From positions 3,077 to 67,076 of the forward strand of contig CAYWLQ010000009.1 in the NCBI GenBank assembly GCA_964458775.1: DNA of 64,000 nucleotides. Reading direction: 5' to 3'. Under the pieces are notes generated by a model. That model was given only the letters and a program-made list of their open reading frames with translations, had not been told where the DNA came from and did no database searches. Both the position numbers and the translations under genes were made by a program. This document shows positions 29,352 through 48,759 of this stretch, one piece after another. This DNA comes from an uncultured Myxococcales bacterium (lineage in GTDB: Bacteria; Myxococcota_A; Polyangia; JAAYKL01). Positions within the stretch are counted from its first letter, which is position 1; every line of letters begins with the position of its first letter.

Positions 29352-31136
29352 GTGGATAGATGTCCTCATTGCAGTCAGAGTCATGCCGGCACTAATCATT
29401 TCTGTCCTGTGACGGGATTGCCTGTCGCACTAGGGCCGAGATTGTTGTCGGCGAAATTGCTGGATAAGTACACTGTTATCAACATTCTAGGAGAAGGCCC
29501 GATTGGCATCGTTCTTGAAGTTGAGGATATTGTTACTCGTATACGCTACGCAGCCAAGCTTATTCATCCTCGTTTTACCAAGGGTCCTAACATAGCCGAA
29601 AACCTTATTAAGGATATAAAACAAGTCCAGTCCGTTTCTTGTGACAATATTGCACAAATAGTCAAGGTGGGAAGGGATTCAGGCGCTGCCGTAGTGGTTA
29701 TTCGAGAACTTATGATAGGAGAGTGTCTTTCATCCAGAATAGAGAATATCGGTCAATTTGCAGTTAAGCCTGCAATCGAAATAACCCGTGAAATATTGAC
29801 AGCATTACATGCTATTCATCAAATAGGTGTATTGAACTTGGATCTTTCACCATCCGACGTCTTTTTAATATCGGGAGCAAAAGGTACTCAAGTCAAATTG
29901 GTGGATATTGGAGAGCGCCATGTTAAAGCTTCTCTTCCAAGCGATTTCTCCGAAGCGGTAGGCTACAAATATTTTGCACCTGAACAACTTGATAAAAGTC
30001 GTCAACCCAACTTCCGTTCGGATATTTACGCAGCGGGAATGATTCTCTATCAGATGCTGACAGGAACTGTACCTGTCGGTGACCCTATTCCGCCAAAAGA
30101 TTGTAGAAAAGATATCTCTGATGATCTTTCTCAAGCGGTACTCAAAGCGATATCTTCGGTTCCCGGTCAGAGACATCAGACCGCACAAGAATTTATACGC
30201 GATTTGGATGCTGTGCTTGTAGAAACTTCAAAAAGCGGAAATACAGGTTCTGTATCTAAGATACCTGCTGTTATAGTTCGAGACAATTCTTCTTTGAATG
30301 CAAAACCTGTTTCAGATGCTGTTGAAACTGAACCTGTTGCAAAAGCAACATCATCAGAAGAAGTCGTTGTTCCAAAACAAAAAAACCAATCAGAAACCGC
30401 TTCCGTAATTGTAGAGATGCCGGAGATAGAAATTCCTCGTTCTCCAACAAAAACAATAGCCGTAATTGCTTTGTTGTTACTCCTAGCGGGCGTTGCCGCT
30501 TGGTTTTTTGTAATAAAAGACTTTGACACATCAACATCTGAGCCATCGTTGCCTGAGGTTCAAATAACAATAGAGGTATCTCCTTCTGATGCTACGGTCT
30601 TTGCGGACGGAAAGAAAGTTTCCGGTTCTCCGGCGGTTTTGCGGCTTCCGGCAGATAACAGTCTTCATACAATAGCAGTTAAGGCAGATGGATATGAGTC
30701 TATTGAGCGCGATGTTCGCCTGGATCGATCAAAAACAGTGAAAATTGAACTTATGGAAATAATACAACCTGATGAACCTTCTGACTCCAATATTGCCGCT
30801 GCTCCTATTTTGACAGAGGCTCGAAACCTTGACGCAGAAAAGGGTACAATCGAATCTGATACAGCTGACATCAAGAATGTCAGCAAAGAGGAAAAAGCCG
30901 TCAAAGCCGAACTTTCAAACAAAAGTTCGGTTGGAACGAGATCTGCCTCAACAGGAAAAAAAGCGGACACAAAGAAAACAACAGTTTCAACCAAACCTGC
31001 TGTTGACTCAGTCGTAAAATCAAAAAAGACATCAGTAGAAAAACCGAGTAATCCTGTTGCTAAAGTACCTAATGATGAGGAACCGCCCAAAACAAAGAAT
31101 TTGGAGGGTTTTCGAACAGTCAATCCGTTTGAGTAA
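29352..31136 (+). CDS. zinc-ribbon, degenerate Hanks-kinase (probable pseudokinase), TM and PEGA-domain protein with a Lys-rich tail
   Basis: N-terminal 'CPHC...FCPVTG' zinc ribbon. The kinase-like domain has 'GEGPIGIV' and 'AAK', but the catalytic loop reads 'NLDLSPSD' (not HRDLKPxN), DFG reads 'DIG', and APE reads 'APEQ'. TM 'IAVIALLLLLAGVAAWFFVI'. PEGA 'ITIEVSPSDATVFADGKKV...HTIAVKADGY'. Lys/Thr/Pro-rich C-terminal tail. Confidence 0.65.
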   Translation: MDRCPHCSQSHAGTNHFCPVTGLPVALGPRLLSAKLLDKYTVINILGEGPIGIVLEVEDIVTRIRYAAKLIHPRFTKGPNIAENLIKDIKQVQSVSCDNIAQIVKVGRDSGAAVVVIRELMIGECLSSRIENIGQFAVKPAIEITREILTALHAIHQIGVLNLDLSPSDVFLISGAKGTQVKLVDIGERHVKASLPSDFSEAVGYKYFAPEQLDKSRQPNFRSDIYAAGMILYQMLTGTVPVGDPIPPKDCRKDISDDLSQAVLKAISSVPGQRHQTAQEFIRDLDAVLVETSKSGNTGSVSKIPAVIVRDNSSLNAKPVSDAVETEPVAKATSSEEVVVPKQKNQSETASVIVEMPEIEIPRSPTKTIAVIALLLLLAGVAAWFFVIKDFDTSTSEPSLPEVQITIEVSPSDATVFADGKKVSGSPAVLRLPADNSLHTIAVKADGYESIERDVRLDRSKTVKIELMEIIQPDEPSDSNIAAAPILTEARNLDAEKGTIESDTADIKNVSKEEKAVKAELSNKSSVGTRSASTGKKADTKKTTVSTKPAVDSVVKSKKTSVEKPSNPVAKVPNDEEPPKTKNLEGFRTVNPFE

Positions 31137-36166: not shown

Positions 36167-37297
36167 TTATAGTTTTGCCCTTAACGCATACCATCCTATG
36201 TTTATAGAGAACTCACATGGGTCGCAGCTTTCGCTTGCGTTAAGGCATGGTTCGCAGGTTTTATTAATCGATAGAACTGCACCTTCGGCGTCTGTTACAT
36301 TTTCTCGCCAGATGTCGGTAAACTGATTGGTTGAGTCGTAGTTAGCGGAATAGAGTTCAACATAAAAATTTATTGAATCTGTGGCTTCGTCATACATTGG
36401 ATAGTCACCGATACCTTGATTGTAGAGTGCCTCCGGAATGTAAATTCCAAGCACCCAAGCTTTATTCGGTCCGGCATTTCCTTGCGCCCAAAGATCTAAT
36501 TCCTTTTCTCCATTGTATTCGTACCAATTGGCATAAAACACATCTAGCAAAACATCTTTGCCGTCGTGCATTGCGATATAGTCAATATTGTTACCGTCAA
36601 GTAAGACTGCCGCCTCATCGTCAATTCCTACAGGTATTGAGAAGTTATCTAATGCAAATCCTCCTACTCCTAAACATAAGGGCAATCCCCAGAGATCTAC
36701 ACAAACATCTCCACATTTGCATGGATCATCTTCTGCAGATTCATCACACATCGGATAACAATAGTTTTCAGAGTATCTGGTCGACGGAAAAACCCAGCTT
36801 CCGCATTCAGAATTTTCACAGCATTCTTCTAAATCGCTACAGATGCTTCCCTCACAATCGTTGTATACACAGTCGCTGTCAGCATCGGTGTCAGCATCTG
36901 CATCTGCATCCGAATCTGTATCGGCATCAGCATCGGTATCGGCATCGATATCGGCATCAGTATCAGCATCGGCATCAGCATCTGAATTGCCGGTACATCC
37001 TTCGCATATTCCCCATTTTTGTCCGCTGCTTTCACATTCTTGAACTCCGGTTCCTCCTTCTGCACATGGACAGACTTTTAGATCACCGGGAACACACGTT
37101 TCTGAACCCAAACAACCTTTACACGGTCCCCAAGAGTTACCGTCTTCACTACAGACCTGAACCCCTGACGTATTTGTTCCGGGACACGGGCAATCTTCTT
37201 GTAAACCGGGAGGACATCCTAGAATTTCACTTGTACAGCCGAACAGTCCATTAAGATATGTCAATGCAATCAATAACGTTGCTATCGTGCGAATCAT
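36167..37297 (-). CDS. cysteine-rich-repeat lipoprotein with internal (Asp-Ala/Asp-Thr)n low-complexity tract
   Basis: Lipobox 'LFGC'. Three tandem Cys-rich repeats of the form C.C.G..G.Q.C...G..WG.C.GC (similar to the cysteine-rich repeats seen in myxobacterial secreted proteins). A 38-aa [37 protein letters not shown] tract, then a Cys-containing C-terminal domain. Confidence 0.5.
   Translation of the reverse strand: MIRTIATLLIALTYLNGLFGCTSEILGCPPGLQEDCPCPGTNTSGVQVCSEDGNSWGPCKGCLGSETCVPGDLKVCPCAEGGTGVQECESSGQKWGICEGCTGNSDADADADTDADIDADTDADADTDSDADADADTDADSDCVYNDCEGSICSDLEECCENSECGSWVFPSTRYSENYCYPMCDESAEDDPCKCGDVCVDLWGLPLCLGVGGFALDNFSIPVGIDDEAAVLLDGNNIDYIAMHDGKDVLLDVFYANWYEYNGEKELDLWAQGNAGPNKAWVLGIYIPEALYNQGIGDYPMYDEATDSINFYVELYSANYDSTNQFTDIWRENVTDAEGAVLSINKTCEPCLNASESCDPCEFSINIGWYALRAKL
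36875..36988 (-). repeat. tandem hexanucleotide (GCATCR)n repeat encoding (Asp-Ala)n
   Basis: Plus-strand DNA reads ...gcatcggtgtcagcatctgcatctgcatccgaatctgtatcggcatcagcatcggtatcggcatcgatatcggcatcagtatcagcatcggcatcagcatct... Confidence 0.8.
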
Positions 37298-37356: not shown

Positions 37357-38868
37357 CTATTTAAAAACGAAGGTGATATCCAGCTCTAGACTAATAAAAC
37401 GAGGTAAATTGTTTTTATCTGAAAGTAATGTGCGTGTTTTTTCATCCATGGTTTTTGCGGCAGAAGATGCGTCGGCGTTTTCGTCAGCAGCCGGCAGAGC
37501 ATTAATTTGACCCAATTCGCTGCATACCTTGGAAGTGCTTTTTAAACTCTGCCTAATTGGATCGTATACTCTTGAGCAAGCATATTTCCAGAAAGGCAAA
37601 AGCCACTGTACGTGAACACCGAAGGCTACTGACGGAGCGGCAAAAAAATTAACCCCGATTTCAGGTGTTACGGTAAAACCCTTAAGAGATACGATCTCTC
37701 GTCTTTTGGAAAGCGTACTTATTGTTTCTTGGTACTCTTCCGGAATATCAAACATCGATCCGTCTAATCCCTCAGTGTTTTGTGCAAACAAAAGCCAGGA
37801 ATGGCCGAAATCTATTCCTATATACGGATCCACGGGAAATCTTCTAACCGGATGAATTCGCAAACCGCCGAAAACTCCTGCATATACAAAAGCCTTGTCA
37901 GCATTTAGAAATACTTCTACGTCGGTAGAAATCGGCATTTGGTGATCAAAGGCAACAGCGGTAAACGATAGAGAGACATAAGAAGCTATACGAACTCCCA
38001 ATCTGATACGACCTCCGTAACCCTTTTTTGCCGATTCGCATATTCCTTCACGCATGCACCATGAAAACATAAATCCCAACTCACCGAACATTCCGGAGTG
38101 ATCCCATTTCTTCCAATCTTTTTTCTTTTTGGGAGCATCATCTAAATCTGAAACTGTAAACTCATCCTCAATTTCAATTTCTTCAGGCTCTTCATGAACC
38201 TCAGGTAATTTTTGAATCACAGGTAAAGGTTCAAAAGCCTCCGACTTTATGAGACGTTCCGGATTTGCCATATAAATTTCGGGAAAAGGTGCGTGCATAG
38301 GATCAGGGCTTTTTCCCAGTAGGTTTGCAACCACGACTGCCGTTGCAGGAATGAACGCTTCTGAGCGATACGGGATTTCCCCTCTAAAAGGAAGTTTAAC
38401 AGTTAATAATCTTATCGATCCTGTTTTAACGTTCATAGCAGCCATATCCAAGAAGTGCTCTTTGGAAACTGTTTCATGGATGTTTGAAATAATAATCAAG
38501 TCAGCGCCGATAGAAACACCTGCTTCTTTTAGTTGAAACCGTGTAGGTTTTCCTTCGACCCCTTTTTTATTTAGTGCTTTATCAACCTCTTGTTCTTTTT
38601 TTACATCATATCCTTGAAGCTTTAGTTGCTCTTTTATTTCCTCAAAACACAACTTTAGTTCCGACAAAGTTAGAGTTCCGAAGGTTGAAGCCGCCCCTGC
38701 TATCGGCAACTGAACGGTGTCTTGCTGTAATCCCGCTTCTGCAGATTCAGAATCGTTAGGCAAAGTTGACTGTTCATCAGCAAAAACACTTTTTGGAAAG
38801 AACCAAATTGTACAAACAGAAAAAATTATAATTATTAATTGTAACAAGCTTTTAAAAAATCTTTCCAA
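37357..38868 (-). CDS. secreted hypothetical protein (signal peptide, beta-rich C-terminal half)
   Basis: N-terminal signal peptide 'IIIIFSVCTIWFFPKSVFA'. No enzymatic motif found. Confidence 0.3.
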   Translation of the reverse strand: MERFFKSLLQLIIIIFSVCTIWFFPKSVFADEQSTLPNDSESAEAGLQQDTVQLPIAGAASTFGTLTLSELKLCFEEIKEQLKLQGYDVKKEQEVDKALNKKGVEGKPTRFQLKEAGVSIGADLIIISNIHETVSKEHFLDMAAMNVKTGSIRLLTVKLPFRGEIPYRSEAFIPATAVVVANLLGKSPDPMHAPFPEIYMANPERLIKSEAFEPLPVIQKLPEVHEEPEEIEIEDEFTVSDLDDAPKKKKDWKKWDHSGMFGELGFMFSWCMREGICESAKKGYGGRIRLGVRIASYVSLSFTAVAFDHQMPISTDVEVFLNADKAFVYAGVFGGLRIHPVRRFPVDPYIGIDFGHSWLLFAQNTEGLDGSMFDIPEEYQETISTLSKRREIVSLKGFTVTPEIGVNFFAAPSVAFGVHVQWLLPFWKYACSRVYDPIRQSLKSTSKVCSELGQINALPAADENADASSAAKTMDEKTRTLLSDKNNLPRFISLELDITFVFK

Positions 38869-39009: not shown

Positions 39010-40560
39010 ATGTTACGCTTCTATTGCGGAGGTGCCAAGTTGGGGATGACATTTATTGAAGCAGCCCAAGAAATACTAGAGAGAACCGGCATTCCTATGC
39101 ACGCAAAGGATATCGCAGAAAAAGCTATTGCTTCCGGTATATTATCACATGTGGGGAAAACACCTGTTCAAACCATGTCCGCACAATTATCAGCTACTGT
39201 GCTAAAAGGAGGAGATACCTTCACAAAAATTCGTCCGGGAGTGTTTGCTCTTACCAAGTGGAAAGATACAAGCACCAAAACAAATAAAAATCAGAGTCTC
39301 AAGACAGACTCGGTATCTTCGTCGACAATGAAATCATTGAATGAATCCATACCCATTGTGCCTCGTGAATTGGAGAGTGCTGTTTTTGAAAAAGAGTCTG
39401 AGGAAAAAGTACAGACATCTTTCGTAGATGGAATTTCAACGAACAGTGTATTGCAGAAAAAACGAAAACGCAGGAGGAAGAAAGCATCTAAAGCATCCTC
39501 TTCCTCTATTCCGGCAAATGAAATGGGAGGTATTGTAACAGTGTCTGACTGTCTTACAGACAAAAAAATCGAGATTTCTTCCGACGCTGTCTTGGAAAAG
39601 GAGGAGAGGGGGAAGTTTGAAAAGGCTGATTTAAGCATTTCTTCCGACATCCTCTTGGAAAAAGGGAATAGGAGGGATTTTGAAACTTCTCGTAAAACAC
39701 TTAATAAAACTGAAGTTGTTGAAGACAGAGAAAAAACGAGTGTAAAACTTACAAAAAAAAATGTTGCTGTATCAAAGCAACAGAACACTGCTTCTCCTTT
39801 GGATTTCAACCGTGATGAAATAGTTGATTATATAGAAAAGATCTTGCGAAAATCTTCTCGTCCCATACCTGCAGAAAAGATTGTTGAAGAGCTGGAGATT
39901 TCTTTCAAAGACGGAATCACCCTTATAGAAGCACTTATAATGTCCGATTCTTTTGAAAGGGAGCGTTCCGGTCGAATGCCTCGTTTTGTTAGACATAGGG
40001 GCGGATATGCTTTGCTTGAACGAGAAGTTAACAGCGAAATTGTAACACTTGAAAATCAAATCACAGAGATCAGAAGCAGGTTGTCTTATCTAGCTGAGCG
40101 TCAAATACTAAAAAAACTACGCAGTATGTCAGCTAATACATTCGTTCAAGTTATGATTATATTTTTGGAAAGACTTGGATTCGGCTCAGTCAAACCGATT
40201 TCTGTTAAAGATGATAACGGATTCTATCTGTCAGTTAAGGATAAATCGCGTAGCGGATCTTTTAGAACCGCAATTGTACTGAGACGAGATCCTGCCGAAT
40301 TCATTTTAACTGAACATGAAGTAATGGAGTTGAGAGGAACAATTCATCATTTTAACGCTATGGGAGGAATGATATTTACCACCGGACGAGCAAATGAGAA
40401 GGCTTGTGAAGAGGGACAAATTGCCAATTTACCTCCGGTTGCAGTGATTGACGGTGAGACACTAGCAAGAGAGCTCGTAAGATTGGGAGTAGGCGTCAAA
40501 GATCGTATTGTACGTCTTGCGATTTATGATGATGTTTTCTTTAATAAGATAGAATCCTAA
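39010..40560 (+). CDS. HARE-HTH (winged-helix) N-terminal domain fused to an Mrr-like restriction-endonuclease-fold C-terminal domain with degenerate catalytic residues
   Basis: N-terminal 'MTFIEAAQEILERTGIPMHAKDIAEKAI..GKTPVQTMSAQLSATVLKGGDTFTKIRPGVFALTKW' is HARE-HTH-like. C-terminal 'FVQVMIIFLERLGFGSV...DDNGFYLSV...AIVLRR...GGMIFTTGRANEKACEEGQ...VAVIDGETLARELVRLGVGV' follows the Mrr_cat pattern, but the GiD and QxK positions are replaced. An internal 2x repeat '(I)SSDAVLEKEERGKFEKADLS / ISSDILLEKGNRRDFETS' lies in the middle. Confidence 0.55.
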   Translation: MLRFYCGGAKLGMTFIEAAQEILERTGIPMHAKDIAEKAIASGILSHVGKTPVQTMSAQLSATVLKGGDTFTKIRPGVFALTKWKDTSTKTNKNQSLKTDSVSSSTMKSLNESIPIVPRELESAVFEKESEEKVQTSFVDGISTNSVLQKKRKRRRKKASKASSSSIPANEMGGIVTVSDCLTDKKIEISSDAVLEKEERGKFEKADLSISSDILLEKGNRRDFETSRKTLNKTEVVEDREKTSVKLTKKNVAVSKQQNTASPLDFNRDEIVDYIEKILRKSSRPIPAEKIVEELEISFKDGITLIEALIMSDSFERERSGRMPRFVRHRGGYALLEREVNSEIVTLENQITEIRSRLSYLAERQILKKLRSMSANTFVQVMIIFLERLGFGSVKPISVKDDNGFYLSVKDKSRSGSFRTAIVLRRDPAEFILTEHEVMELRGTIHHFNAMGGMIFTTGRANEKACEEGQIANLPPVAVIDGETLARELVRLGVGVKDRIVRLAIYDDVFFNKIES

Positions 40561-40579: not shown

Positions 40580-43144
40580 ATGGCAGAAAAAAACAACAAC
40601 ATGTCTTTTTCTTTTTCTGATGCTGAAATGCCTGTTCGTTTTGGACGATATATGCTGCTTCGCAGAAAAAGTTTGGAATCAATAGGTGAACACTTTTTGG
40701 CATTGTGGGGTGTTGATGAAGGAATAGATCAACTGCGTATGGTTCGTGCTATCTATCGATCAGTTGCAGAAGACGAAGACTTTGTGGCTATGTTTACAGA
40801 AGAAGCTCGTTCCTTATCACAACTATCAAGCTCCAATGTTGTACGAATTGTTGAGGTCGGAAGCGAAAGCGGAATTCCGTTTGTTGCTCAAGAGCATGTA
40901 GAAGGTATTACGCTTGAACGCCTGCTTCAGATTTCGGAAGAGCGCGGGATACGATGCCATTGGGAACTTGCTGCACACGTAGCTGCTGAAATGCTTCGCG
41001 GGCTTGATCATGTTCATCGTCGTGAAGATGTTAGAGGTATTCCGTTGGCAATGCGTCACGGAGATATAAGACCTCCAAATGTGCTGATTTCCTTTAATGG
41101 TGAGGTTAAACTTACCAATTTCAGCTCTTCTTTGTATTATATGGTTCATAAAGGCACAAACACTCGATTCGAAACCGAACGCGGAATGTATGCATCGCCG
41201 GAAGGACGTCGTTCGGCCTCAAAAGGGGCAACCGCAGCCGGTGATTTATGGGGAGTATCTGTTTCTCTTCTCGTTATGCTTGAAGGATTGTCGGCACTAA
41301 AACAAATCAACTCATTTGTTGCAGACGGCGAGTCTTTAACCTCTGTAGCATACAGGATAAGAGAAATACCCAAACGTCTCAATCTTCTCTTGGCTAGAGC
41401 CCTTCATATAGATCCGCGCCATCGATTTGATACTGCATCTGCAATGAGAGATGCTTTGTTAGAAATTCTTAAAGAAAACGGTGTCGGTCATCCTCCTGAT
41501 GATCTATCTGCCTTTGTTAAGGATCTGGGTTCTCAAGAAAGAGAAGAAGAAGAAAAAATAGTTAGAACCATGTTAGGAAGGGAAGCGAGTATGTCTCTTG
41601 ATGAATTGTCTGATTCATCAAAAATTGCGCCCGGAACTGTATTAGACGGCAAATATCATTTGTTAAGACTCATAGGCGAAGGTGGTATGGGGCAAGTCTT
41701 TGAAGCGGAGCATTTGGGTATAGAAAAGCGTCTGGCAGTTAAAGTTCTTCACGAACGTGTACTTCACGATCAAGTCGCGGTGGAGCGTTTTCGCCGAGAA
41801 GCTAGAATTCTAGGCGGACTTGGTCATCCCAATATTGTCAGCGTTACTGACTACGGAGTTACTGTTGAAGGAAACTACTACTTGGCAATGGAGCTTCTTG
41901 ACGGAAAGAGCCTTGGTTCAAAATTAGAAAAAAACGAGGCAATATCTCCTGTAGAAATTATGGATATAATGATTGCGGTTTGTAACGGTCTTACTGCTGC
42001 TCATGCAGCCGGAGTAGTGCATCGTGACCTTAAGCCGGACAACATATTTCTAACAAGAACAGGTCCTCGAATTGTCGATTTTGGCATAGCCAAACGGACA
42101 GATTTCGATGATGAAGAGCGCTCGCTAACGAAAACCGGCAATATCTGCGGCACAGTGGAATATATCTCACCTGAACACATCGGAGGTCAAAATACAGATC
42201 ATAGGGTAGATATATACACAGCAGGGCTAATTATCTACGAAGTGCTTACAGGTACTACTCCTTTTAAGGGGCGCAATATTGCTGAGACGATGAACCGAAT
42301 TATGACAGACAAGATTACCGCTCCAAGAAAACGCACAGGCAACAAACTAATTCCTAAACCGTTGGAGGATATTTGTCTTAAAGCAATGTCTCGCGATCCG
42401 GCAAAGCGTTATCAGTCTGCTGAAGAAATGCGATTGGCATTAGAAGCTGTTAGAGCTGAAGTATTTCAGATGACAATGATTGAGTCTTTGGGAAATTCAA
42501 AAAAAACCAAAACTCTCCATACTGTTGCATTATTAGGATTGTCAGGTGCTATGTTGTTGTCTGCAATACTGATATATTTTTTTAAACTTAACTCGGTCAA
42601 TGAAAACAAGGTATCAGTTACTCTACCATTGTCTTCGGAAATAAAAAAAGCCGAACCCTTACCCTCAATTCATGACAATGATGATAGTCATGTTGAAGAA
42701 AAACTGACAAAATCTGAGAATAATATCGCCGAAAACACAACAGAAGACACAGCTTCATTTTTCAATTCTGTCAATGAAGGAGAAATAACCTTAGAAGAGC
42801 TCTTAAGCCAAGGAGAAGCAGCCTTGAAGAGACTTGATCTGGCCGGTGCTGCTTATCACTTTAAGATGGCGTCAGAGAGAGATCCTCGAAATCCACGAGG
42901 TTGGTACGGACAAGGAAGAGTTTGGTTTGAACGGAACGACCCTCAAAGAGCCGTCATAATGATTCAGAAAGCACTAAAATTGGATCCAGGTAGATATAAA
43001 TGGCGTGTTTTTTTAGGAAAAATCTACATGTCAATTGGAGACAGAGAGCGAGCAGTTCGAGAATGGAAAAGAGTTCTGCTGACACGCCCCAACCATTCAG
43101 AAACTTTACAATTGCTTTCAGCTTCAGGTGCACCGTCTGACTAG
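40580..43144 (+). CDS. tandem pseudokinase plus active Hanks Ser/Thr kinase, with TM and C-terminal TPR repeats
   Basis: Domain 1 is degenerate ('MRHGDIRPPNVLI', 'KLTNFSSS', no Gly loop). Domain 2 is canonical ('GEGGMGQVFEA', 'AVK', 'HRDLKPDNIFL', 'DFGIAK', 'SPEH'). TM 'LLGLSGAMLLSAILIYFF'. C-terminal TPR ('AAYHFKMASERDPRNPRGWYGQGRVWFERNDPQRAV...'). Confidence 0.85.
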   Translation: MAEKNNNMSFSFSDAEMPVRFGRYMLLRRKSLESIGEHFLALWGVDEGIDQLRMVRAIYRSVAEDEDFVAMFTEEARSLSQLSSSNVVRIVEVGSESGIPFVAQEHVEGITLERLLQISEERGIRCHWELAAHVAAEMLRGLDHVHRREDVRGIPLAMRHGDIRPPNVLISFNGEVKLTNFSSSLYYMVHKGTNTRFETERGMYASPEGRRSASKGATAAGDLWGVSVSLLVMLEGLSALKQINSFVADGESLTSVAYRIREIPKRLNLLLARALHIDPRHRFDTASAMRDALLEILKENGVGHPPDDLSAFVKDLGSQEREEEEKIVRTMLGREASMSLDELSDSSKIAPGTVLDGKYHLLRLIGEGGMGQVFEAEHLGIEKRLAVKVLHERVLHDQVAVERFRREARILGGLGHPNIVSVTDYGVTVEGNYYLAMELLDGKSLGSKLEKNEAISPVEIMDIMIAVCNGLTAAHAAGVVHRDLKPDNIFLTRTGPRIVDFGIAKRTDFDDEERSLTKTGNICGTVEYISPEHIGGQNTDHRVDIYTAGLIIYEVLTGTTPFKGRNIAETMNRIMTDKITAPRKRTGNKLIPKPLEDICLKAMSRDPAKRYQSAEEMRLALEAVRAEVFQMTMIESLGNSKKTKTLHTVALLGLSGAMLLSAILIYFFKLNSVNENKVSVTLPLSSEIKKAEPLPSIHDNDDSHVEEKLTKSENNIAENTTEDTASFFNSVNEGEITLEELLSQGEAALKRLDLAGAAYHFKMASERDPRNPRGWYGQGRVWFERNDPQRAVIMIQKALKLDPGRYKWRVFLGKIYMSIGDRERAVREWKRVLLTRPNHSETLQLLSASGAPSD

Positions 43145-43220: not shown

Positions 43221-44537
43221 CTAACTGCCTGCTGTCATAGTAAAAGGAAGAAATTTTGCGCGATTCGGATGCCTCAACTTGTTCATTGCCTTCATCTCTA
43301 TTTGGCGAATTCGTTCTCTTGTGACTTTAAACCTCAAACCTACGTCATCAAGTGTGTGTTCGTTCATTGACTCAATTCCATAACGCATTCTAAGGACAAG
43401 CTCTTCTCTAGGTTCCAAGGTGGATAAAGCTTTTCTGGTCTTTTCTGATGTGTCTTTACTTAGGGCAATTTCTTGTGGTGAAGCGTTTCGATCATCTTCC
43501 AGTAGATCACAGAGAACTGCATCATTATCATCCCCGCCGATGGGCATGTCTATGCTTACTGTTTCCTTGGTAATATGAAGCAGCATTTCTACCTTAAAAA
43601 CATCCATTTCCATTTGTGCGGCAAGTTCTTCTAAAGACGGTTCTCTCTGAAGCTCTTTTGACAGTTTTTCTCTAAGATGTCCGAGTTTACGTTTGTAATC
43701 AGAAATGTGAACCGGAATACGTATAATTCTCGAATGATCATCAAGAGCTCTTGATACAGCTTGTCTTATCCACCAGGTTGCGTATGTGCTGAAGCGGAAT
43801 CCCAATCTATGGTCATATTTTTCTGCTGCGCGCATCAGGCCGATATTTCCTTCTTGTATTAGGTCAAAAAGCGGCATTCCCCTGTTTTTGTATCTTTTAG
43901 CAATTGAAACCACCAAACGCAGGTTAGATTCGACAATGCGCATTCGCATTCGTCTTATGCTTTCCTCATGTATGAAGAGCTTGTCACACAATATTTGAAG
44001 GTTTTTCTCTGATATTCCTAACTTATTTTCAACTTCAAGTATTTGGTTTTCCGCTTGTTTTGCTGCGGTATCCATATCGCGCAAAGTATGTAAATTCAGA
44101 CGGCTGGGCCATGAGCACATAGCCTGCTTCTGAAATGCAGCATCAGCCTTGCGAAGTAGTTTTCGGATTTCAAACATCTTCATGCCGGCAATCTTTTCGC
44201 AACGCTTAATGGTTTGGGCGGCCTGTTTTTGGATCTCGTTACATTGATGTAACTGTTCAATAGTTTGATAAAGAAGTTTTCGCTCAGAGGCATCTTCTGT
44301 TTCTGTTTCTTTGTCAAAATCATATTCAGCTTGCTCAACAAACTGCACAGGAATAGAAATTCCGAATTTTTCTATTAGAGCAGATACCTTTGCTTCTTCT
44401 TCAACAATTTTCTCACCGATTGCTGTTTCATCTTCTCTAGTAAGCAGTTTAAAACGAGCTATTCTCTTTAAATAGTCACCGATTGCTTCAATTACCCATT
44501 GTTCATTGTTTTTGTTTCGGACACTATTCATGAGCAA
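43221..44537 (-). CDS. RNA polymerase sigma-70 family sigma factor (RpoD-type, group 1/2-like)
   Basis: Region 2 '[61 protein letters not shown]', region 3 'IRIPVH', and region 4 '[29 protein letters not shown]'. At 438 aa it is shorter than a typical RpoD. Confidence 0.85.
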
Positions 44538-47607: not shown

Positions 47608-48759
47608 ATGTTAAAGATAATAAAAGGTTTTGTCATTGCCGGTTTGTTTATACTTGGTTGTAGTAAGAACGGTCCTTGTCCGGACAAATCCGACTATCTC
47701 GGTGATAAACCAGGAAAAGATACAAAACAGTGGTGTGAAAAAAAACTTGCTGATGGAAAAACTGTAAAAGACGGTCAGTTCTATATATGGCATTCTCCAA
47801 CGCAAAAGAAGATTGAAGGCTTTTATAAAGAAGGAAAAAAAGAAGGAACTTGGACGAGCTACCATCCAAACGGAAAAAAGAAAGATGTTGGAAATTTTGT
47901 TAATAACAAAAGAGAAGGACTATTGACCGTATGGAACCAAAATGGAGTTAAGATTAGCGAAGGAACGTATTCAAACGGAAAAAAAATTGGAACTTGGACA
48001 TCTTGGTATGAAAACGGAAAAATGAAGGCCCAAGGTGAGTGGAAAAACGGCCGACGTAATGGTAAATGGATACGATACGACAAAAACGGCAAGGTAGCAA
48101 CAGAAGGATTCCATAAAGAAAACAAGGAAGTCGGTCAATGGACTCATTTTTATCCCAACGGTGCAAAGAAAGAAGTCGGCACTTATGACAAAAACAAAAA
48201 GAAAACAGGTAAATGGCAGCTTTGGTATGAAAATGGGAAACTGCGTTCAAAAGTTACCTATAAAGGCGGAAAAAAGAACGGATTATCAGTAAATATGTAC
48301 AATGGCGGGAAGAAGAAATCAGAAGGATCGTGGGTTTCTGACAAACAACAAGGCCAATGGACCTACTGGTATGAGAACGGTCAATTAAAATCAGAAGGAA
48401 GTTTTAACAAAGGCAAACGAGATGGTTTATGGACTTACCAGTATGAAAACGGTCAGAAAAAATCAGAGGAAAATCTTTCAAATGACAAAAGGAACGGACA
48501 AGCTACTTATTGGTACGAAAACGGTCAAACAGCATCTGCCGGAAATTTCAAAAACGGTACAAGAATAGGCAAATGGACTTTTTGGTATGATAACGGAAAG
48601 AAAAAGTTTGAAGGTGATTTCGAAAACAATACAGTTGCTGAAGGCGCAACATTCTTTGATATTAACGGTAGGAAGATGAACCCGCCTGATAATATTAAAG
48701 AGTTTCTATTTCCACCTAAAGAAAAAGTAGACCCAAAGCTTAAAACGACAACGATTTGA
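47608..48759 (+). CDS. lipoprotein built of MORN-variant (YwqK-family) repeats
   Basis: Lipobox 'ILGCS'. About 12 tandem repeats of roughly 23 aa with consensus 'G.W..WYENGK.KSEG.Y.NGK..G'. Confidence 0.7.
   Translation: MLKIIKGFVIAGLFILGCSKNGPCPDKSDYLGDKPGKDTKQWCEKKLADGKTVKDGQFYIWHSPTQKKIEGFYKEGKKEGTWTSYHPNGKKKDVGNFVNNKREGLLTVWNQNGVKISEGTYSNGKKIGTWTSWYENGKMKAQGEWKNGRRNGKWIRYDKNGKVATEGFHKENKEVGQWTHFYPNGAKKEVGTYDKNKKKTGKWQLWYENGKLRSKVTYKGGKKNGLSVNMYNGGKKKSEGSWVSDKQQGQWTYWYENGQLKSEGSFNKGKRDGLWTYQYENGQKKSEENLSNDKRNGQATYWYENGQTASAGNFKNGTRIGKWTFWYDNGKKKFEGDFENNTVAEGATFFDINGRKMNPPDNIKEFLFPPKEKVDPKLKTTTI

What the first reader, a model, noticed from the sequence alone, without database searches (positions are those of the whole stretch)
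39010..40560. HARE-HTH fused to an Mrr-like nuclease fold whose catalytic residues look degenerate
The N-terminal roughly 85 aa match the HARE-HTH winged helix, a module proposed to read modified DNA and typically fused to restriction-type nucleases. The C-terminal roughly 150 aa follow the Mrr_cat order, but the GiD Asp is Tyr and the QxK is LRR. This suggests an inactivated PD-(D/E)xK domain retained for DNA binding. The 200-aa middle region is low-complexity Ser/Glu/Lys-rich with an internal duplicated 20-mer. It could be a modification-sensing DNA-binding protein rather than a restriction enzyme.
Basis: partly seen in the sequence, partly recalled or inferred. Interest (0 to 1): 0.6.

Follow-up and report, generated by a model that had tools for sequence, protein, structure and literature searches.

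The report
Dead Mrr-type nuclease, two winged helices
This gene encodes a member of a large, uncharacterised, chromosomally conserved Myxococcota protein family that looks like a methyl-directed restriction enzyme (Mrr type) but has lost the cutting residues, so it most likely binds rather than cleaves DNA and databases that call it a "restriction endonuclease" are probably wrong.

Summary

The Mrr D...QxK motif is absent. Gln219 aligns with Val423 and Lys221 with Arg425. Residues 403-408 (NGFYLS), where the Asp belongs, hold no acid. None of 275 homologues has an acid or Gln at 423 together with Lys at 425.

- Residues about 268-335 form a second winged helix, related to HARE-HTH by profile comparison (92.5% probability). 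Only about 92-262 is disordered.
- A run of at least five Lys/Arg in the linker is conserved family-wide.
- The family is a core chromosomal gene of Polyangia, Bradymonadia and allied Myxococcota: at least 547 species, housekeeping neighbours, no viral copies. It is not a defence-island gene.

In the window's clade, an orthologous pseudokinase-kinase-TPR gene follows directly in 9 of 10 loci.

Best reading: a domesticated, non-catalytic Mrr derivative acting as an oligomeric chromosomal DNA-binding protein. Modification sensing is untested. This is a new variant of a known kind, of moderate interest.

The parts
39046..40560 (+). Probable true coding sequence (504 aa plus stop). The mechanical ORF starts at 39010.
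   Evidence: At the aligned start 109 of the 111 family sequences read MTF, at the position of M13. GGAGG at 39029-39033 lies 12 nt upstream of ATG 39046. A 100% identical NCBI protein is P0001.
39046..39261 (+). N-terminal HARE-HTH winged helix (ORF residues 13-84). It is the most conserved part of the protein, with an invariant L-S-H-V-G-K-x-P-x-x-T-M.
   Evidence: Pfam PF05066, E 9.4e-17, model positions 1-71 of 71. AF2 pLDDT is about 96, with H-H-H-beta-beta topology.
39283..39795 (+). Disordered Ser/Lys/Glu-rich linker (residues about 92-262). Its sequence is not conserved and its length varies from 78 to 417 aa across the family.
   Evidence: AF2 pLDDT is below 50.
39457..39483 (+). Poly-basic patch KKRKRRRKK (residues 150-158) inside the linker. 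It is the only conserved linker feature.
   Evidence: These columns are R/K in nearly all 111 sequences. A run of at least 5 K/R is present in 91-96% of members of each of the three clades.
39574..39685 (+). Lineage-specific in-frame duplication of about 17-20 aa (copies 39574-39622 and 39637-39685).
   Evidence: the repeat finder reports 49 nt at 78% identity with 63-nt spacing. The 38/49 matches compare with 26.6 +/- 1.2 in shuffles. The second copy lies in an insertion shared with only one other of the 111 sequences.
39811..40014 (+). Second, divergent HARE-HTH-like winged helix (residues about 268-335).
   Evidence: AF2 pLDDT is above 90, with H-H-H-beta-beta topology. hhalign of its family profile against the N-terminal domain profile gives probability 92.5%, E 5e-7. 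No Pfam hit in any of 29 members scanned.
40033..40125 (+). Long single helix (residues about 342-372) joining the second winged helix to the nuclease-fold domain.
   Evidence: AF2 helix 330-360 in M13 numbering, pLDDT above 90.
40117..40557 (+). Mrr-type restriction-endonuclease fold without the canonical catalytic residues (residues 370-516).
40210..40290 (+). The beta2-beta3 region (residues 401-427) where the D...(D/E/Q)xK motif should lie. G404/Y406 stand in place of Asp, V423 in place of Gln/Glu, R425 in place of Lys.
   Evidence: Alignments are. 0 of 275 homologues have D/E/Q at 423 together with K at 425.
40580..43144 (+). Probable operon partner: an 854-aa protein with a pseudokinase, a Ser/Thr kinase, a transmembrane segment and TPR repeats, 19 nt downstream.
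   Evidence: Pfam Pkinase matches in two stretches, plus TPR. The motifs are HGD/NFx against HRD/DFG. No terminator-like site lies between the genes. A full-length orthologue lies directly downstream in 9 of 10 clade-A loci. No other window neighbour is syntenic.

Best explanation
The gene encodes a domesticated, catalytically dead derivative of an Mrr-type (type IV, modification-dependent) restriction enzyme. It has become a vertically inherited chromosomal protein of Polyangia, Bradymonadia and allied Myxococcota.

**Anatomy (shown).**
- A canonical HARE-HTH winged helix at the N-terminus.
- A variable disordered linker carrying a conserved poly-Arg/Lys patch.
- A second, divergent HARE-HTH-like winged helix.
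- A long helix.
- An Mrr_cat fold that lacks the D...(D/E/Q)xK residues.

**Proposed mechanism (inferred).**
- The two winged helices and the basic patch bind DNA.
- The dead nuclease fold keeps the self-association typical of Mrr/MspJI-type domains, so that a dimer or tetramer presents four to eight DNA-binding modules.
- The protein would then act as a non-cleaving chromosomal DNA-binding or bridging protein, either nucleoid-associated or a global transcription factor.
- In the window's clade it is probably co-transcribed with, and possibly regulated by, a membrane pseudokinase-kinase.

Whether binding depends on a DNA modification is not shown.
For: **Domains and fold.**

**Loss of catalytic residues.**
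- The window has G404/Y406, V423 and R425.
- 0 of 275 family members combine an acid or Gln at 423 with Lys at 425.
- The three clades differ in what they retain: clades A and B have E404, V423, R425; clade C has D404, Q/R/H423, V425.
- The rest of the domain stays highly conserved, including R442, H446-H447-Y448, TTG 457-459, A465, E468, D481 and D507. This indicates selection for a non-catalytic role.

**Core-gene behaviour.**
- 547 GTDB species carry a relative.
- 616 clusters at 50% identity match at E<=1e-30.
- More than 1500 relatives were found in one clade alone.
- Neighbours are AlaS, MurB and Ddl in clades A and B; ribosomal protein L31 and LipB in clade C; HtrA, Tpx, sigma-70 and HolA in the window.
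- No relative was found in viral contigs.
- PADLOC gives domain-level hits only.

**Other support.**
- The conserved poly-basic run.
- Mrr forms tetramers and dimers, and D203A compromises its activity (PMC5435990).
- The kinase linkage.
Against: - No experiment and no residue-level structural superposition was possible, because the tools return no coordinates. Inactivity is therefore inferred from sequence and secondary-structure register.
- Position 404 is acidic in 87% of relatives, and H406, R425, D427, R442 and H446/H447 are conserved. This could mark a re-purposed ligand or catalytic pocket rather than a dead one.
- DNA binding by either winged helix is untested. The HARE-HTH of RNA polymerase delta binds polymerase rather than DNA (own knowledge).
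- Oligomerisation is inferred only by analogy.
- Linker net charge flips between clades: acidic in B, strongly basic in C. A uniform nucleic-acid-binding role for the linker as a whole is therefore unlikely.
- The kinase linkage is confined to one clade.
Confidence: 0.55

Rival explanations
1. It is an RNA-polymerase-associated factor, analogous to the Firmicute delta subunit. The N-terminal HARE-HTH would dock on RNA polymerase. The charged disordered linker would modulate nucleic-acid binding. The C-terminal winged helix plus dead nuclease would add DNA or partner contacts.
For: - The architecture begins like delta: HARE-HTH followed by a long charged disordered region, acidic in clade B at 24% Asp/Glu.
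- The N-terminal domain is the most conserved part of the protein.
- The gene has a housekeeping context.
- Foldseek also matches the nuclease-fold N-domain of RNA polymerase subunit Rpb5.
- A sigma-70 family gene lies near in the window.
Against: - No NCBIfam delta-subunit hit.
- The family profile finds no delta chain in the PDB at E<=10.
- The sigma gene is not syntenic in any related locus.
- No RNA polymerase genes are conserved nearby.
- Linker charge is not conserved.
Confidence: 0.2
2. The old active-site pocket has been re-purposed as a binding site for an anionic ligand, such as a nucleotide second messenger or a phosphorylated partner. The protein would then be a signal-responsive regulator downstream of the adjacent kinase, rather than a general DNA-architectural protein.
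For: - Conserved basic and polar residues cluster in sequence around beta3 and alpha2: R425, R/K426, D427, R442, H446, H447, Y448.
- The orthologous pseudokinase-kinase is linked on the same strand in 9 of 10 clade-A loci.
- The linker is Ser/Thr-rich, at about 23% in the window.
Against: - The spatial clustering of these residues could not be checked, because no coordinates were available.
- The kinase is absent next to the gene in clades B and C.
- H446 is not conserved in clade C.
- There is no known precedent for ligand binding by an Mrr_cat fold (own knowledge).
Confidence: 0.12
3. It is still a functional type IV (modification-dependent) restriction endonuclease with a non-canonical active site.
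For: - The Pfam Mrr_cat and HARE-HTH combination is typical of predicted modification-dependent nucleases (PMC10853773).
- The best structural matches are AspBHI and MspJI.
- PADLOC PDC-S02 matches at E 7.8e-13 and mREase_IV at 7.5e-4.
- Position 404 is acidic in most relatives.
- Public annotations call relatives 'restriction endonuclease'.
Against: - The window protein has no acid at or near the Asp position, and no acid, Gln or Lys in beta3.
- No family member has the complete motif.
- The distribution is core, syntenic and phylum-restricted, among housekeeping genes in three clades.
- No viral copies were found.
- A self-genome-encoded nuclease with two DNA readers and no partner methylase would be unusual as a core gene.
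Confidence: 0.06

Closest known systems
E. coli Mrr (EcoKMrr) and Pfam Mrr_cat type IV restriction enzymes
   Same: - Overall plan: a winged helix, a linker and a C-terminal Mrr_cat fold.
- The family HMM matches Mrr residues 163-304 at E 3.7e-15.
- The shared scaffold motifs are kept: TT(S/G)xxxxxA, the DG after the last strand, and a C-terminal D.
   Different: - Mrr D203/Q219/K221 are replaced: no acid at 403-408, V423 and R425.
- There is an extra N-terminal HARE-HTH and a long disordered linker with a poly-basic patch.
- The winged helix next to the nuclease fold is HARE-HTH-like, not Mrr_N.
- It is a core chromosomal gene rather than a gene of the immigration-control region (one search shows the Mrr context of hsdRMS and mcrBC).
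HARE-HTH + restriction-endonuclease fusions predicted by Aravind & Iyer 2012 and seen next to Dnd systems (PMC10853773)
   Same: HARE-HTH is fused N-terminally to a restriction-endonuclease-fold domain, and HARE-HTH is proposed to discriminate modified DNA.
   Different: Those are predicted active nucleases in restriction-modification or defence neighbourhoods. This family has lost the catalytic motif, has two HARE-HTH-type domains, and lies among housekeeping genes.
Inactive restriction-endonuclease (iREase) domains, e.g. Pfam NA-iREase1 and the iREase inserted in Orc/Cdc6-type ATPases (PMC10853773)
   Same: The concept is the same: a restriction-endonuclease fold that has lost catalytic residues and is kept for a non-catalytic role.
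   Different: - The NA-iREase1 score is below its threshold (15.1 against 27 bits).
- There is no NACHT, STAND or AAA+ partner.
- That Pfam model also scores the active EcoKMrr at 40.9 bits, so a hit says nothing about activity.
MspJI / AspBHI modification-dependent endonucleases
   Different: They use an SRA-like reader rather than HARE-HTH and have an intact D...(Q/E)xK. Sequence identity is only 14-20%.
RNA polymerase delta subunit (RpoE) of Firmicutes
   Same: An N-terminal HARE-HTH followed by a long charged disordered region.
   Different: Delta ends with the acidic tail and has no second winged helix or nuclease fold. There is no detectable specific sequence similarity.

Membership tests
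Pfam HARE-HTH (PF05066) | Profile score above the curated gathering threshold over the full model | tested here: met
   61.6 bits against 25.9; residues 13-84 cover model positions 1-71 of 71.
Pfam HARE-HTH (PF05066) | Winged-helix fold with three helices and a beta-hairpin wing | tested here: met
Pfam Mrr_cat (PF04471) | Profile score above the gathering threshold | tested here: met
   40.3 bits against 21; residues 370-487 cover model positions 1-113 of 115. All 29 family members scanned match.
Pfam Mrr_cat (PF04471) | PD-(D/E)xK alpha-beta-beta-beta-alpha-beta fold | tested here: met
Active Mrr-type / type IV restriction endonuclease | Catalytic D...(D/E/Q)xK residues (D203, Q219, K221 in EcoKMrr; D203A compromises activity, PMC5435990) | tested here: not met
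   Q219 aligns with V423 and K221 with R425. There is no acid at 403-408. 0 of 275 relatives have the beta3 motif.
Active Mrr-type / type IV restriction endonuclease | Defence-type genomic behaviour: patchy distribution, islands, restriction-modification or mobile-element neighbours | tested here: not met
   Synteny with AlaS/MurB/Ddl or L31/LipB is conserved. The window's neighbours are housekeeping genes. At least 547 species, all labelled Myxococcota, 'Deltaproteobacteria' or related. No viral loci.
Active Mrr-type / type IV restriction endonuclease | Cleavage of modified DNA | not testable with these tools
   This requires biochemistry.
Pfam NA-iREase1 (PF22722) | Profile score above the gathering threshold, and association with NACHT/STAND NTPases | tested here: not met
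   15.1 bits against 27. There is no NTPase domain in the protein or its neighbours. The active EcoKMrr scores 40.9 bits on this model.
RNA polymerase delta subunit (RpoE) | HARE-HTH followed only by an acidic tail; recognised by curated delta-subunit models | tested here: not met
   No NCBIfam hit. No delta chain was found with the family profile in the PDB. The protein has an additional winged helix and a nuclease fold.
PADLOC candidate system PDC-S02 / mREase_IV | Full-length match to the system's protein model in a defence context | tested here: inconclusive
   PDC-S02 matches at E 7.8e-13, but only residues 324-501 against model positions 206-381 of 390. mREase_IV matches at 7.5e-4. This is domain-level similarity. 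The context is not defence-like.

The most novel reading that the evidence does not exclude
A whole bacterial lineage (Polyangia, Bradymonadia and relatives) has turned a modification-dependent restriction enzyme into a core chromatin or transcription protein. In this reading, two HARE-HTH readers and a poly-Arg patch are mounted on an oligomerising dead nuclease. The protein reads a DNA modification state epigenetically across the chromosome. In one clade it is controlled by a co-transcribed membrane pseudokinase-kinase. It would be a bacterial counterpart of eukaryotic HARE-HTH chromatin proteins such as ASXL.
Probability: 0.2. Interest if true: 0.7.

Novelty: new variant of a known kind. 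Interest (0 to 1): 0.45.

Why it matters
If correct, this is a clear case of a defence nuclease domesticated into a core, vertically inherited chromosomal protein across a large part of a phylum known for complex regulation and multicellular behaviour.

It would:
- correct a systematic mis-annotation, since relatives are labelled 'restriction endonuclease' or 'Mrr';
- add a candidate nucleoid or transcription factor for Polyangia and Bradymonadia, where such proteins are poorly known;
- offer a tractable bacterial system to test what HARE-HTH domains actually recognise, which remains a prediction even for the eukaryotic ASXL-type proteins.

If it is only a generic DNA-binding protein, the finding is of local annotation value.

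Tried and rejected
- **Direct PDB sequence searches.** The protein and both family profiles found nothing meaningful, only low-complexity or chance hits.
- **NCBIfam.** No hit.
- **Tandem Repeats Finder.** It found no repeat. The duplication only appears with the repeat finder.
- **Pfam on the middle domain.** No hit, either alone or in 29 relatives. The domain's nature rests on AF2 and hhalign.
- **AFDB Foldseek.** Unavailable, so no UniProt-named structural neighbours were obtained.
- **Fixing the Asp equivalent by sequence.** I therefore argue from the whole 403-408 stretch and from the secondary-structure register, not from one column.
- **The alpha1 Glu.** Mrr E172 aligns with V379. The family's E380, present in clade B only, is one residue off. 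I do not count it as a catalytic residue.
- **Other syntenic neighbours of the window.** Sigma-70, HolA, HtrA and the two upstream secreted proteins have no homologue near any of the 80 related loci.
- **An orthologue in Myxococcus or another model organism.** The named hits are MAGs of Polyangiaceae, Bradymonadaceae, Labilithrix sp. and 'Myxococcota'. One MAG is labelled Myxococcaceae. No cultured model strain was identified.
- **Literature.** No paper in the library treats this family. Aravind & Iyer 2012 is not held.
- **Rejected idea.** The weak NA-iREase1 hit is not evidence of inactivity, because the active EcoKMrr scores better on that model.
Full report
**1. The observation**

The window holds an ORF at 39010-40560 on the + strand, 516 aa.
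- It is a real gene. An identical protein is on record from an NCBI assembly (P0001), and there are 110 further relatives in the first search. There are 616 representative clusters at E<=1e-30 among 1.84 billion representatives, and more than 1500 relatives of one sub-clade alone.
- At the aligned start, 109 of the 111 family sequences read M-T-F, at the position of M13. A GGAGG lies 12 nt upstream of that ATG. The likely coding sequence is therefore 39046-40560 (504 aa).
- Residue numbers below are those of the 516-aa ORF.

**2. The domains**

- Pfam places HARE-HTH at residues 13-84 (E 9.4e-17, full model) and Mrr_cat at 370-487 (E 3.8e-10). Both are above their curated thresholds.
- An AlphaFold2 model built on the 111-sequence alignment has mean pLDDT 77.6, and above 90 in all folded parts. 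It shows:
  - a winged helix at 13-85;
  - a disordered stretch at about 92-262;
  - a second three-helix plus beta-hairpin domain at about 268-335;
  - a long helix at 342-372;
  - an alpha-beta-beta-beta-alpha-beta domain at 375-492 with a C-terminal helix.
- Foldseek agrees, with MspJI at E 7.5e-5, followed by FokI, AspBHI, the Rpb5 N-domain and Cap4.

**3.

Only about 170 aa are low-complexity: Ser 15.8%, Lys 14%, Glu 10.5%.
- Residues 268-335 fold confidently. A profile of this region aligns to a profile of the family's N-terminal HARE-HTH with hhalign probability 92.5% and E 5e-7.
- Pfam finds nothing in that region in any of 29 members scanned.
- The protein thus carries two HARE-HTH-type winged helices. 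The second sits just before the nuclease fold, as the Mrr_N winged helix does in E. coli Mrr.
- The linker sequence is not conserved, with one exception: a run of consecutive Arg/Lys, KKRKRRRKK at 150-158 here. It is almost invariant in the alignment. A run of at least five is present in 91-96% of members of each clade.
- The 'duplicated 20-mer' is real. The copies are 39574-39622 and 39637-39685, with 38 of 49 nt identical, in frame, 63 nt apart. Shuffles give 26.6 +/- 1.2. In the 111-sequence alignment the second copy lies in an insertion shared with only one other sequence, so it has no family-wide meaning.

**4. The catalytic residues**

I fetched E. coli K-12 mrr. Its motif residues are D203 (G-G-I-D), Q219 and K221 (V-Q-A-K). 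D203A is the published catalytically compromised mutant (PMC5435990).
- A family HMM of the C-terminal domain aligns to Mrr 163-304 at E 3.7e-15 with no gap through beta3. That alignment gives Q219 to V423 and K221 to R425. MAFFT gives the same.
Strand beta3 (418-425, F-R-T-A-I-V-L-R) contains no Asp, Glu, Gln or Lys.
- The Asp equivalent cannot be fixed to a single column by sequence.
- Residues 403-408 are N-G-F-Y-L-S, so no acid is available under any reading.
- Two Asp at 401-402 are not conserved even in the closest relatives.

Across the family, three clades appear:

| Clade | Members | n | Position 404 | Position 423 | Position 425 |
|---|---|---|---|---|---|
| A | the window's clade | 34 | E26 / G6 / S2 | V/I | R |
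| B | Polyangiaceae, Labilithrix | 76 | E | mostly V (V64, I7, L2, A1) | R |
| C | Bradymonadaceae-like | 25 | D | Q/R/H | V/I |

- In 275 relatives with a complete domain, none combines D/E/Q at 423 with K at 425.
- Position 404 is acidic in 239 of 275. It is the best candidate for the ancestral catalytic Asp. The window protein and its nearest relatives have lost that residue too.
- Meanwhile the scaffold motifs shared with Mrr remain highly conserved: T-T-(G/S), A465, D-G at 481-482 and D507. So do the family-specific residues R442 and H446-H447-Y448.
- This pattern fits a domain under strong selection for something other than canonical catalysis.
- I could not make a residue-level 3-D superposition, because the tools return no coordinates. 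Inactivity is therefore a strong inference, not a demonstration.

**5. Genomic behaviour**

- A scan of one genome per GTDB species found 547 species with a relative. All 80 loci returned are labelled Myxococcota, Polyangia, Polyangiaceae, 'Myxococcales' or 'Deltaproteobacteria'.
- Clustering the neighbours of those loci showed conserved housekeeping synteny. Alanyl-tRNA synthetase and MurB lie upstream in Polyangiaceae, and D-Ala-D-Ala ligase lies upstream in several clade-A loci.
- In clade C the gene lies between ribosomal protein L31 and lipoyl transferase LipB, overlapping the latter by a few bases.
- In the window, the neighbours within about 10 kb are HtrA, a Tpx-type peroxiredoxin, a sigma-70 family factor, HolA, glycerate kinase, kinases and secreted proteins of unknown function. 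There is no methyltransferase, no restriction or defence gene and no mobile-element gene.
- No relative exists in 2.9 million viral contigs.
- PADLOC gives only domain-level similarity: PDC-S02 at E 7.8e-13 over the helix plus nuclease fold, and mREase_IV at 7.5e-4.
- This is the profile of a vertically inherited core gene, not of a restriction system.

**6. A lineage-specific partner**

- Nineteen bases after the stop codon begins an 854-aa gene (40580-43144). No terminator-like site intervenes.
- It encodes an N-terminal pseudokinase (H-G-D, with N-F-x in place of D-F-G), a canonical Ser/Thr kinase (H-R-D, D-F-G), a membrane segment and TPR repeats.
- A full-length orthologue (660-791 bits, 43-49% identity) follows the target gene directly in 9 of 10 clade-A loci. 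It is absent there in clades B and C.
- None of the window's other neighbours is syntenic in any related locus.
- The pair is therefore probably an operon in this clade. A regulatory link, such as phosphorylation of the Ser/Thr-rich linker, is plausible but only inferred.

**7. Most likely mechanism**

- Shown: two winged helices of the HARE-HTH type, a conserved poly-basic patch, an Mrr-type fold without the canonical catalytic residues, and core-gene behaviour.
- Inferred: the winged helices and the basic patch bind DNA. The dead nuclease fold preserves the self-association seen in Mrr (tetramer and dimer, PMC5435990) and in MspJI-type enzymes. The oligomer acts as a non-cleaving chromosomal DNA-binding or bridging protein. 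I put this at about 0.55.
- Rivals:
  - a delta-like RNA-polymerase-associated factor (0.2), based on HARE-HTH plus a charged disordered region, but with no specific similarity to delta and no conserved RNA polymerase linkage;
  - a re-purposed anionic-ligand pocket linked to kinase signalling (0.12);
  - a still-active non-canonical nuclease (0.06).
Nothing here tests it.

**8. Comparison with what is known**

- HARE-HTH fused to restriction-endonuclease folds is a described architecture in restriction-modification and Dnd neighbourhoods (PMC10853773).
- Inactive restriction-endonuclease domains are a described concept (same paper; Pfam NA-iREase1).
- This family differs in four ways: it has two HARE-HTH-type domains, a conserved poly-basic patch in a long disordered linker, family-wide loss of the beta3 motif, and a core, housekeeping, phylum-restricted distribution.
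- It meets the Pfam definitions of HARE-HTH and Mrr_cat. It fails the defining catalytic and contextual features of an active type IV enzyme. It is below threshold for NA-iREase1 and lacks that family's NTPase partners. The NA-iREase1 model scores the active EcoKMrr well above threshold (40.9 bits), so it does not diagnose inactivity.
- No paper in the searchable library deals with this family. Public annotations read 'hypothetical protein', 'HTH domain-containing protein' or 'restriction endonuclease (Mrr)'.

**9. Verdict**

'Not a restriction enzyme, dead nuclease fold' is well supported. 'Retained for DNA binding' and 'modification-sensing' are untested.
- Novelty: a new variant of a known kind.
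- Interest is moderate, about 0.45. It is a clean example of nuclease domestication into a core gene of a large lineage and a likely mis-annotation, but the function remains inferred.

Noticed in passing
window 40580-43144 (+): An 854-aa membrane protein with a tandem kinase arrangement. The N-terminal domain is a pseudokinase (HGD; NFS in the window and NFG in orthologues in place of DFG, conserved across them). It is followed by a canonical Ser/Thr kinase, a transmembrane segment and TPR repeats. The gene is probably co-transcribed with the target and is syntenic with it in 9 of 10 loci of the same clade.
   Followed up: partly
window 36167-37297 (-): A 376-aa Cys-rich, apparently secreted protein. 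It contains an Asp-Ala / Asp-Thr dipeptide repeat of about 35 residues ([37 protein letters not shown]). There is no Pfam hit, and no homologue near related loci.
   Followed up: partly
window 37357-38868 (-): A 503-aa protein with an N-terminal hydrophobic signal-like segment, divergently oriented from the target gene. There is no Pfam hit, and it is not syntenic in relatives.
   Followed up: partly
L081:8950-9864 (E. coli K-12 mrr): The active enzyme EcoKMrr scores 40.9 bits (E 2.3e-10) on Pfam NA-iREase1, 'NACHT-associated inactive REase 1', above that model's gathering score of 27. The model does not separate inactive from active Mrr-type domains.
   Followed up: yes
window 43221-44537 (-): A sigma-70 family factor with regions 1.2, 2, 3 and 4, with a long N-terminal extension (region 2 starts at residue 201), lies convergent to the kinase gene. 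It is not found next to the family gene in any of the 80 related loci.
   Followed up: partly
window 29352-31136 (+) and 47608-48759 (+): A further Ser/Thr kinase with a PEGA domain, and a MORN-repeat protein. Together with the many kinases, these fit a Myxococcota-type genome of unusually low G+C (about 40%).
   Followed up: no
L082:8001-10107 and L085:8001-10108: In the Bradymonadaceae-like clade, the family gene overlaps the start of lipB (lipoyl/octanoyl transferase) by 4-17 nt and follows rpmE (ribosomal protein L31). This is a different, equally housekeeping, conserved operon context.
   Followed up: partly
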